Assembly: GCA_964016885.1 (NCBI GenBank)
Contig: OZ024753.1
Span: 8,494,001-8,558,000 of the forward strand
Reading direction: 5' to 3'
Source: Eledone cirrhosa
Taxonomy: Eukaryota
Length of the DNA stretch: 64,000 bases
Positions within the stretch are counted from its first letter, which is position 1, and every line of letters starts with the position of its first letter. This document shows positions 51,534 through 53,377 of the stretch, piece after piece. The notes under the pieces were generated by a model. That model had not been told where the DNA came from and ran no database searches. It saw only the letters and a list, made by a program, of their open reading frames with translations. The translations under genes and the position numbers were made by a program.

Positions 51534-51690
51534 CATACTACTGTACGTCTGTATACATATATGTATGTACGTATACATACTTATGTTTAAGTAACAGCCG
51601 TACTAAGAGTGAGAAATGAAATTTCGTTTCATTTTTTCCGTTTATATATATATATATATATAGTTATATAATAAACAACATAAGGCAATT

Positions 51691-51750
51691 ATTCCATTTA
51701 CCAGTGGTTTCTTAAAAGCAAAAAATGTTGCTTTCAATCATCAGAATGAA
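51691..51750 (-). ncRNA. Second, inverted copy of the same hammerhead
   Basis: Reverse complement reads ttcatt-CTGATGA-ttgaaagca..tgcttttaa-GAAA-cc-act-gg-TA-aatgga. Confidence 0.75.
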
Positions 51751-51764
51751 AAAATCCAGGAGTT

Positions 51765-51824
51765 TTCCATTCTGATGATTGAAAGCAAAATTTTCTGCTT
51801 TTAAGAAACCACTGGTAAATGGAA
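51765..51824 (+). ncRNA. Type I hammerhead ribozyme (complete)
   Basis: Stem I TTCCATT/AATGGAA (7 bp), CTGATGA at 51772, stem II TTGAAAGCA/TGCTTTTAA, GAAA at 51805, stem III ACC-act-GGT, cleavage triplet GTA (cut after 51817). Confidence 0.85.
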
Positions 51825-53377
51825 TAATTACTGTATGTTGTTTATTATATAACTATTAAGCTCTGTTACCTACATAGAGCACTCTTTTTTCCTGGACTTT
51901 TCTGATGGAATTACTTCATTCATACATATATATATATATACATATATATATTTATATGCAAGTGTGTTTAGAAAATAGTGACCAGTTTGAAACTGAATTT
52001 GCTGTAATTTAATAATTCACAATTTTGTGTCTTATAATTATTTTAACATTTCATTATCATGCTAAAAAGAATTATATTGTCCTATATGATCACCTTTTTA
52101 CCTGAATAACCTTTACCACAGATCCTTTTAAACTTTCAGTTCCTCTCAATATATATCAGTTATCTTATTTATGAATTTCATGTTACTTTCCAACTATATC
52201 TCTTGTGTTTATTAAGAATAGTATAAGATATAATCTTCCTTTGCCGTCTATCTTAAATCAAATAGGTGAATTGCACCTACATTTAACCCCACCTACCTTA
52301 CTTTACATAAATATACCTTTACATCACTAAGACGTTTTTTGTTTTTTTCCTTTCAAAACAGTTTATAGTAATTTATTGGTTCATTGCATGTGTAACCACA
52401 TTTCTGATATATTTCTTTCACACATCAAGTAGAAGTCAAGTAAATGTTGTTGTTTTTTTCATAAAGAATATGTTTCTATCTGTGAACTTTGGCTTTCTAA
52501 AAATGACTGTTATTTATCTTCTTCTTGAGACATATCAACTATTGGTTACACATCTATGTTATTCAACTATTGTGCATTCCTATCAACTGTTATATATTTC
52601 AGACTTAACCAACTAGCTCAATCACTGCACAATTATGTATTTTCAAAACTTCTACTCTGTCTCACTATTTTCCTCTTTCCAGTATGTTTTTTTCTCCATC
52701 TACTATCTAAACCTCTAAATATTGTGTATATATCCAACATTCTATAAAATGTATTTTGCTTTTATTTCTGAAGCATTCATAAGTATTTAAAACTAGTAGA
52801 CAGTATCAGCAATAGAAAAACCAATGTAAAGACAGTTTCCTTGGTCTGATCTAATGATCGGCTCCCAAACTCTAGCTTAAAAATAAGAGAGTTAGTTATA
52901 TTACTAAAGCTTGATCATCTTTTGAAAAAGTTTGGCAGTGTATTTCATTAGTAATATTGTAGTAAAAGTAGTAAAATTGTAGTAATATTGTAGTAAAATT
53001 GTAGTAATATTGTAGTAAAAAGTTTAAATGTTCCACTTTTGTGTTGGCATTACAAGACCCATTCAAAAGTCAAGTGTTGATATTTCTACAAAATCAGCTT
53101 TCTTCATATATGATTGTAGGTATGTACAATATAATGATTGTCATATCTGAGGTGCAACTATAACTCAACTTAACCTGTTGACTGCCATGTATATTTTACA
53201 CAGCTACAGTTGGTGTGCCTTTTTTTTTTCTTTCAGTAAAATGATTATTCTTTTAAACAAACATTTATTAACAACACATATTTGAATGATTGATAAATGT
53301 CACATCAATAAACTAGTAACCCCATCTAGCTTTGAAGTTATGAACTGTTGGAAATGAGTTGATAACTTTGAAGTTAT

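What the first reader, a model, noticed from the sequence alone, without database searches (positions are those of the whole stretch)
51662..51922. Structurally complete hammerhead on the sense strand of the host intron, paired with its own antisense copy
Seen: perfect 7-bp stem I, intact CUGAUGA/GAAA core, 9-bp stem II, stem III ACC/GGU and a GUA site (cut after 51817), in the same orientation as the Ig gene. An inverted copy immediately upstream (51691-51750) is transcribed first and could sequester it in a long hairpin. Inference: the fold-back arm may silence a ribozyme that would otherwise cut the pre-mRNA, which could explain why such palindromic insertions persist.
Basis: partly seen in the sequence, partly recalled or inferred. 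Interest (0 to 1): 0.75.

Follow-up and report, generated by a model that had tools for sequence, protein, structure and literature searches.

The report
Ordinary Penelope retrotransposon end with hammerhead
This is one of thousands of short leftover ends of a known kind of jumping gene (a Hydra-type Penelope element) in an octopus-type genome, and its mirror-image pair of self-cutting-RNA motifs is most likely a by-product of how such elements insert, not a safety catch for the host gene.

Summary
The hammerhead, the cut site (after 51817), the inverted arm and the sense position in an Ig-gene intron are real. The stretch 51660-51922 is the 3' repeat (pLTR plus 66-nt tail) of a Hydra-clade Penelope-like retrotransposon with the usual inverted, 5'-truncated copy, in a (TA)n site. 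A 31-nt core occurs 3,830 times in the genome. Longer copies join it to an RT/endonuclease frame with the Hydra motifs. The inverted arm is itself a whole hammerhead. Folding predicts that it masks the sense motif, but masking does not seem to be why such copies persist: in six Ig-family gene spans (1.07 Mb), 14 of 27 sense hammerheads had no inverted partner within 500 nt, against 10 of 25 antisense. The palindromic stem III suggests that lone copies need a dimer to cut. The arrangement is published for Penelope elements, and a Hydra family is already listed for octopus. Side finding: long copies carry a second, upstream hammerhead whose site is mostly GUG, expected not to cut (87 of 122, against 15 of 4,412). 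This scan noted other Penelope/hammerhead families in this genome; a look-up by sequence found no note on this one. No RNA data were available.

The parts
51643..51661 (.). (TA)n microsatellite, left side of the insertion site (overlaps the arm end by 2 nt)
   Evidence: the same flank at the inverted arm in many other copies
51660..51757 (-). Inverted, 5'-truncated copy of the element's 3' repeat, ending at the 'short' 3' end (no tail)
51692..51751 (-). Second complete type I hammerhead motif (stem I with one G-U pair); predicted cut between 51699 and 51698; antisense to the host gene
   Evidence: descriptor scan and fold
51756..51760 (.). Junction of the two arms; the 1-nt spacer is unusually short for the family (larger, often palindromic spacers in most other copies)
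51759..51856 (+). Direct copy of the 3' repeat (pLTR) up to the short 3' end; terminal-type arm
51765..51824 (+). Type I hammerhead motif: stem I 7 bp, CUGAUGA, stem II 9 bp, GAAA, palindromic 4-1-4 stem III, GUA; predicted cut after 51817
51857..51922 (+). 66-nt 'tail', present on one arm only; in L066 and L074 it runs on into the 5' UTR and the start codon of the element's ORF
51923..51957 (.). (TA/CA)n microsatellite, right side of the insertion site
36827..37034 (+). Host exon of an Ig-domain gene (AG...GT bounded); the element lies in the following intron

Best explanation
The stretch is the short 3' end of a Penelope-like retrotransposon with the Hydra-clade motifs, present in thousands of copies and lying here in a (TA)n run inside an intron, and its mirror-image arm most likely arose during insertion rather than through selection to protect the host gene. 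Shown: the anatomy (TA)n, inverted short copy, direct copy, tail, (TA)n; the copy number; the physical link of this hammerhead family to an RT plus GIY-YIG-type endonuclease frame. Inferred from published Penelope work: the element's protein nicks AT-rich DNA and starts reverse transcription at two fixed sites 66 nt apart, which gives the short and the tailed end; early termination on both DNA ends leaves two head-to-head stubs. Inferred: the hammerhead serves the retrotransposon, likely cutting as a double hammerhead formed by two copies through the palindromic stem III. In the host pre-mRNA this copy is predicted to be locked in a 98-bp hairpin, and a lone copy would likely cut poorly anyway, so the insertion is probably close to neutral.
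For: Copy number: 1,927 + 1,903 exact 31-mers, control 0. Anatomy: 18 of 29 distinct loci carry an adjacent inverted arm (30 loci fetched, L024 is the same place as L004; these are best hits, not a random sample). In 13 of 13 complete adjacent pairs only one arm has the tail. 25 of the 30 fetched loci show the tail's end motif, nearly all running straight into a TA/CA repeat. Among the first 100 listed matches, pairs within 600 nt are 18 head-to-head, 1 tail-to-tail, 0 direct. ORF link: 15 of 25 loci found with the endonuclease DNA carry this hammerhead downstream within about 1.5 kb; L066 and L074 show hammerhead, tail, 117 nt, ATG. Hydra motifs RWK, DKT, YRDD, CxCx5C, CxxC..E and N..CxH are present (definitions in PMC8557442 section 11). 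The published octopus element Hydra-1_Obim has the same kind of stem III (acca-a-tggt against acca-c-tggt here). Core positions vary least (0.8% of cells), N7 20%, loop II 10% (69 arms). Two copies co-fold into the double hammerhead (-36.4 against 2 x -13.7 kcal/mol). No strand bias in gene spans: 27 sense, 25 antisense, reversed control 0; unmasked 14 vs 10.
Against: No cleavage or RNA evidence was obtained. Pfam did not recognise this RT/endonuclease, and its 120 listed homologues carry no informative names, so the clade rests on motifs and a by-eye comparison, not on a tree. 10 of 25 endonuclease loci had no such hammerhead within the fetched flank. The two arms here differ at 7 of 98 sites, more than the mean of 4.1% for adjacent pairs and more than the 5.3% mean between loci, so a single template for both arms is not shown for this copy. 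The strand test covers only six inferred gene spans and mostly other hammerhead families. A preprint reports exclusion of tandem hammerhead retrozymes from Xenopus introns (10.64898/2026.07.22.740005), so intronic hammerheads can be selected against when dimer-competent.
Confidence: 0.88

Rival explanations
1. One reading: the sense hammerhead would cut the host pre-mRNA, the fold-back arm silences it, and selection therefore keeps palindromic copies in introns while removing unmasked sense copies.
For: Predicted complete masking by the arm, also co-transcriptionally. The isolated 77-nt motif folds correctly (stem I 0.89, II 0.97, III 0.50). Tandem retrozymes are reported as excluded from Xenopus introns (abstract and part 1).
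Against: Unmasked sense motifs 14 vs antisense 10 at 500 nt, and no significant difference at 300, 1,000, 2,500 or 10,000 nt. Six unmasked sense motifs lie in this gene, one in the window at 41772, and a direct sense pair 349 nt apart lies in another gene span. Inverted copies are a mechanistic hallmark of Penelope elements, including Naiads that lack canonical hammerheads.
Confidence: 0.07
2. The locus is a domesticated regulatory RNA of the Ig gene (a switchable ribozyme, or a double-stranded substrate for A-to-I editing or small-RNA production).
For: A 98-bp, 93% hairpin in a sense intron.
Against: The copy is an ordinary member of a family of more than 3,800; its right arm is more, not less, diverged from the family majority (7 differences against a mean of 3.7). 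The seven arm mismatches show no one-strand A-to-G pattern. It lies about 14.6 kb from the nearest mapped exon.
Confidence: 0.03
3. The palindrome is a non-autonomous element in its own right (MITE-like or retrozyme-like) that is copied as a fixed 260-nt unit.
For: Short, high copy number, inverted arms, fixed outer ends.
Against: The inner junction differs from copy to copy (head-to-head distances 45-504 nt and up to 7.7 kb; arms truncated at different points), the arms are unequal by the tail, and the same ends continue into ORF-bearing copies. No tandem monomers were seen at this locus.
Confidence: 0.02

Closest known systems
Hydra clade of Penelope-like elements, including Hydra-1_Obim of Octopus bimaculoides and Penelope-13_HM (Craig et al. 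2021, PMC8557442; seen: passages, section 11, supplement searches and supplement part 2)
   Same: C-terminal endonuclease; RWK, DKT, CxCx5C, CxxC and CxH motifs; (TA)n targets; hammerhead near the 3' end with a 4-n-4 palindromic stem III. Penelope-13_HM is listed with a 5'-truncated inverted copy and a hammerhead on both strands. By eye, 25 of the first 44 residues match Hydra-1_Obim.
   Different: A separate family from Hydra-1_Obim (different stems I and II, GUA rather than GUU site). The tail is 64-68 nt rather than the 30-40 bp given for PLEs. Long copies carry two direct hammerheads about 1.1-1.6 kb apart after the ORF, which the passages and tables read do not describe.
PLE hammerheads (Cervera and de la Pena 2014, PMC4209133; seen: parts 1-2 of 4)
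   Same: Type I motif in pLTRs, long helix II, short palindromic helix III expected to work as a dimer; dual motifs about 100-700 bp apart on opposite strands were reported for truncated PLEs in Schistosoma.
   Different: Helix I is longer here (7 bp), a short helix III is present, and G10.1-C11.1 is replaced by U-A. Activity of this family is untested.
Poseidon element PAc of Anolis (Frangieh et al. 2024, PMC11167929; seen: parts 1-2 of 4)
   Same: Two fixed 3' ends that define a tail; AT-rich targets; hammerhead in the pLTR upstream of the ORF start.
   Different: Other clade; in PAc the ORF starts inside the hammerhead, here about 220 nt downstream of the cut site. The PAc hammerhead cut only with protein.
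Metazoan non-LTR retrozymes (preprint 10.64898/2026.07.22.740005; seen: abstract and part 1 of 5)
   Same: Type I hammerhead of PLE origin, non-coding dispersed copies.
   Different: Retrozymes are tandem monomers; this copy is a head-to-head stub and its family is joined to a coding PLE.

Membership tests
Type I hammerhead ribozyme | CUGANGA and GAAA core, UH site, three helices | tested here: met
Type I hammerhead ribozyme | G10.1-C11.1 pair closing helix II | tested here: not met
   U-A in the sequence; several Hydra hammerheads in the published table also start helix II otherwise
Type I hammerhead ribozyme | Match to an Rfam hammerhead model at gathering score | tested here: not met
   only a tRNA hit in the window
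Type I hammerhead ribozyme | Self-cleavage | not testable with these tools
   needs an in vitro assay
Penelope-like element (EN+) | pLTR with hammerhead flanking an RT plus C-terminal GIY-YIG-type endonuclease ORF | tested here: met
   15 of 25 endonuclease loci with the motif downstream; pLTR-tail-ATG in L066 and L074. Met by the family; the window copy has no ORF.
Penelope-like element (EN+) | Inverted 5'-truncated copy at the 5' end; tail on one end only | tested here: met
Hydra clade | RWK and DKT motifs | tested here: met
   RWK in L070, DKT in L066 and L069, read from separate natural copies
Hydra clade | CxCx5C linker; CxxC and CxH around the conserved E and N | tested here: met
   L065
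Hydra clade | (TA)n insertion preference | tested here: met
Hydra clade | Length under 3 kb | tested here: inconclusive
   ORF about 2.1 kb plus a 3' region of up to about 1.8 kb in two-hammerhead copies; such copies exceed 3 kb
Hydra clade | Placement in the Hydra clade on an RT tree | not tested
   reference sequences were seen only as paper text and could not be used in a call
Non-LTR retrozyme | Tandem monomers each with a hammerhead | tested here: not met
   one search shows no tandem unit at the locus; 0 direct pairs within 600 nt among 100 listed matches

The most novel reading that the evidence does not exclude
Long copies of this family carry their own dimer partner: an upstream hammerhead with an intact catalytic core but a mostly uncleavable GUG site, 1.1-1.6 kb before the terminal one. 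It would lend its catalytic half so that only the terminal site is cut, and only in full-length transcripts, while the thousands of one-hammerhead stubs stay silent in host introns. Basis: GUG in 87 of 122 internal-type motifs against 15 of 4,412 terminal-type; core intact in 16 of 17 internal arms; internal and terminal arms co-fold through stem III in 5 of 6 loci tried. Rival: the three shared internal changes are all A-to-G and may be editing scars or drift in a redundant copy.
Probability: 0.2. Interest if true: 0.55.

Novelty: new member of a known kind. Interest (0 to 1): 0.2.

Why it matters
The locus itself is ordinary. Its value is as a caution and a resource: this genome holds about 50 hammerhead motifs per megabase of intron in the spans examined (52 in 1.07 Mb), apparently tolerated on either strand, so a sense intronic hammerhead is no sign of host function here. 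The family is abundant and little diverged, which makes it a convenient system for two open questions named in the papers read: what PLE hammerheads do, and how the inverted copy and tail arise. The two-hammerhead 3' region offers a direct test of the double-hammerhead model.

Tried and rejected
Rfam scan of the window: no hammerhead family at gathering score. Pfam on the linked ORF pieces: no hit; a homologue search gave 1,335 proteins without informative names. Sequencing runs: no RNA holder listed; the three runs laid were contigs of one sample and showed only repeat-level depth; neither bears on expression or cleavage. A regular-expression hunt for Ig motifs missed the host exon; it was found by a composition score. 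A one-strand A-to-G editing signature in this copy's arms was looked for and not seen. Within-locus against between-locus arm identity (4.1% in 13 pairs, 5.3% in 1,310 pairs) was too close to show a single template. Paper searches: 'hammerhead ribozyme' + Penelope + inverted; octopus/hammerhead/Penelope; intronic, pre-mRNA, antisense orientation; hammerhead + cephalopod. Their listings showed no paper on this family, on hairpin masking of PLE hammerheads in introns, or on a dead-site partner hammerhead; most listed papers were seen as listings only, and the library lacks most subscription journals. The O. vulgaris repeat paper PMC13282606 (passages) counts Penelope-like families but has no occurrence of 'ribozyme' or 'Hydra'. 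Supplements of the bioRxiv preprint were not seen. MITE, retrozyme and domestication readings were considered and ranked low.

Full report
Observation. The plus strand carries a type I hammerhead motif at 51765-51824: a 7-bp stem I, CUGAUGA, a 9-bp stem II, GAAA, a three-pair stem III around a 3-nt loop, and GUA with the predicted cut after 51817. The isolated motif folds this way in RNAfold. An inverted repeat spans 51660-51757 and 51759-51856, 98 nt at 93%. The upstream arm is not just an antisense strip: read on the minus strand it is a second complete hammerhead. Rfam gave no hammerhead hit at gathering score. The pair closing helix II is U-A, not the G10.1-C11.1 that PMC4209133 calls highly conserved.

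Host gene. An AG/GT-bounded exon at 36827-37034 encodes part of an Ig domain, 93% identical to proteins named from Octopus vulgaris and O. sinensis. Other exons of that protein map on the same strand at C13:8382194, 8635417 and 8734284, and a second Ig exon at 8619109; no other exon was found in the window or the 20 kb on each side.

A large repeat family. An exact 31-nt piece of the core occurs 1,927 + 1,903 times, the reversed control 0 times. In 30 best-hit loci (29 distinct), 18 have an adjacent inverted arm. The arms stop at two fixed 3' points, one equal to 51856 and one near 51922, followed by TA or CA repeats. In 13 of 13 complete adjacent pairs only one arm has the longer end. Among the first 100 listed matches, neighbours within 600 nt are 18 head-to-head, 1 tail-to-tail and 0 direct; head-to-head distances run from 45 nt to 7.7 kb. 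Fixed outer ends with a variable inner junction point to 5' truncation of two opposed copies, not to a fixed palindromic unit.

The parent element. Extending L019 showed an endonuclease-like frame about 270 nt upstream of a hammerhead arm. Of 25 loci found with that DNA, 15 carry the same hammerhead downstream within the fetched flank and 10 do not. Longer stretches show an RT with YRDD, a CxCx5C linker, and CxxC and CxH around the conserved E and N (L065), RWK (L070) and DKT (L066, L069), read from separate natural copies. These are the features that PMC8557442 section 11 gives for the Hydra clade, with (TA)n targets and canonical hammerheads. In L066 and L074 the hammerhead and tail run on for 117 nt to the start codon, so the tail is read-through into the next unit. 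The paper's supplement lists Hydra-1_Obim from Octopus bimaculoides, with a stem III acca-a-tggt against acca-c-tggt here, and Penelope-13_HM with an inverted 5' copy and a hammerhead on both strands. By eye 25 of the first 44 residues match Hydra-1_Obim. Pfam did not recognise the ORF and no tree was built, so the clade is assigned on motifs.

What is known. [quoted passage not shown] PMC4209133 reports dual motifs 100-700 bp apart on opposite strands in truncated PLEs, no monomer cleavage for the motif tested and low cleavage for dimers (parts 1-2). PMC11167929 shows in vitro that the tail lies between two reverse-transcription start sites, that the PAc hammerhead cut only with protein and that cleavage was not needed for insertion (parts 1-2).

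The ribozyme. Across 69 arms the core varies in 0.8% of cells and stem III in 0.8%, against 20% at the free N7 position, 10% in loop II and 3.5% in stem II; cells count copies, not events, and the arms are best hits. This fits selection on the motif in the active lineage. Stem III is self-complementary: two copies co-fold into the double hammerhead at -36.4 kcal/mol against -27.4 for two monomers. In the monomer, stem III has probability 0.50.

Testing the silencing idea. With the arm, all three stems fall to probability 0.0, and the hairpin forms in nascent prefixes before the core is complete. The masking itself is therefore likely if the intron is transcribed. Adding only the tail also removes stem I (0.004). 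To ask whether masking is selected, I scanned the spans of the host gene and five paralogous Ig genes inferred from exon hits (1,067,203 bases). A descriptor found 27 sense and 25 antisense motifs of several families, and none in the reversed sequence. With no inverted partner within 500 nt there were 14 sense and 10 antisense (p = 0.54); other distance cut-offs gave the same picture. Six unmasked sense motifs lie in the host gene itself. Limits: gene spans are inferred, most motifs belong to other families, pairs are not independent, activity is unknown, and the 95% interval for the sense share is 0.37-0.78. Against my reading, a preprint reports that tandem retrozymes are excluded from Xenopus introns.

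Mechanism. Most likely (0.88) the element's protein nicked a (TA)n run and reverse-transcribed the 3' repeat from the two start sites onto the two DNA ends; both copies stopped within about 100-170 nt, leaving a head-to-head stub. The anatomy and the ORF link are shown; the steps are inferred from published PLE work. The arms of this copy differ at 7 sites, more than most adjacent pairs, so a single template is not shown. In the host transcript the copy is predicted to be a hairpin and is probably near neutral.

Side finding. Several long copies have two direct hammerheads after the ORF, 1,123-1,632 nt apart in the six examined. The upstream type, marked by a stem II variant, has GUG at the site in 87 of 122 exact pattern matches, the terminal type in 15 of 4,412; the marker tracks position in 15 of 17 internal and 2 of 52 terminal arms. 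That G at position 17 blocks cleavage is recalled knowledge (NUH rule). The core is intact in 16 of 17 internal arms, and internal and terminal arms pair through stem III in 5 of 6 co-folds. This allows a helper-half model (probability 0.2).

Verdict. Observation confirmed; interpretation partly supported; a new family of a known clade in a known arrangement; interest 0.2. No RNA data were available.

Noticed in passing
L067, L071, L072, L075, L076, L077 (3' of the endonuclease frame): Two direct hammerheads 1.1-1.6 kb apart, separated by a microsatellite-rich spacer; the upstream one mostly has a GUG site (87 of 122 genome-wide pattern matches) and three shared A-to-G changes.
   Followed up: partly
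window 41772 (+), 48804 (-), 49826 (-): Three hammerheads of another family with a palindromic AT-rich stem III; the sense one at 41772 has no inverted partner nearer than about 7 kb; 48804 and 49826 lie in a duplicated stretch about 1 kb apart.
   Followed up: partly
window 42326-42433: A second small palindrome with CUGAUGA/GAAA motifs back to back and a 6-nt spacer, apparently truncated through stem I; another family.
   Followed up: no
window 50390-50460: Short palindrome holding only the 3' half of a hammerhead-like motif of a further family, between TA runs.
   Followed up: no
Six Ig-family gene spans on C13 and C3 (L079-L176, L036-L039, window): 52 intact hammerhead motifs of at least eight sequence types in 1.07 Mb; 27 of them in the host gene's 352 kb.
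   Followed up: partly
L031:5726-7930 (+), L032:3729-4856 (-), L033:2076-4183 (-): Frames of other Penelope-like families next to copies of this one; L031 holds a 735-residue open RT frame (Pfam RVT_1), L033 a second Hydra-like family.
   Followed up: no
L004, L005, L007, L014, L018, L022, L026, L029 between the arms: The inverted arms often meet in poly(A)/poly(T) or short filler DNA about 25-40 nt upstream of the hammerhead, a hot spot of 5' truncation at an A/T run.
   Followed up: no
window 3348-3420 (-): tRNA-like match just at the Rfam threshold (29.7 bits), probably the head of a tRNA-derived SINE.
   Followed up: no
window 10089-10721 (-): Tandem repeat of about 121 nt; and a long low-complexity satellite at 33719-36061.
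   Followed up: no
window 26360-26650 (-): C-terminal fragment resembling an RTE-type LINE protein (resemblance recalled; no Pfam support).
   Followed up: no
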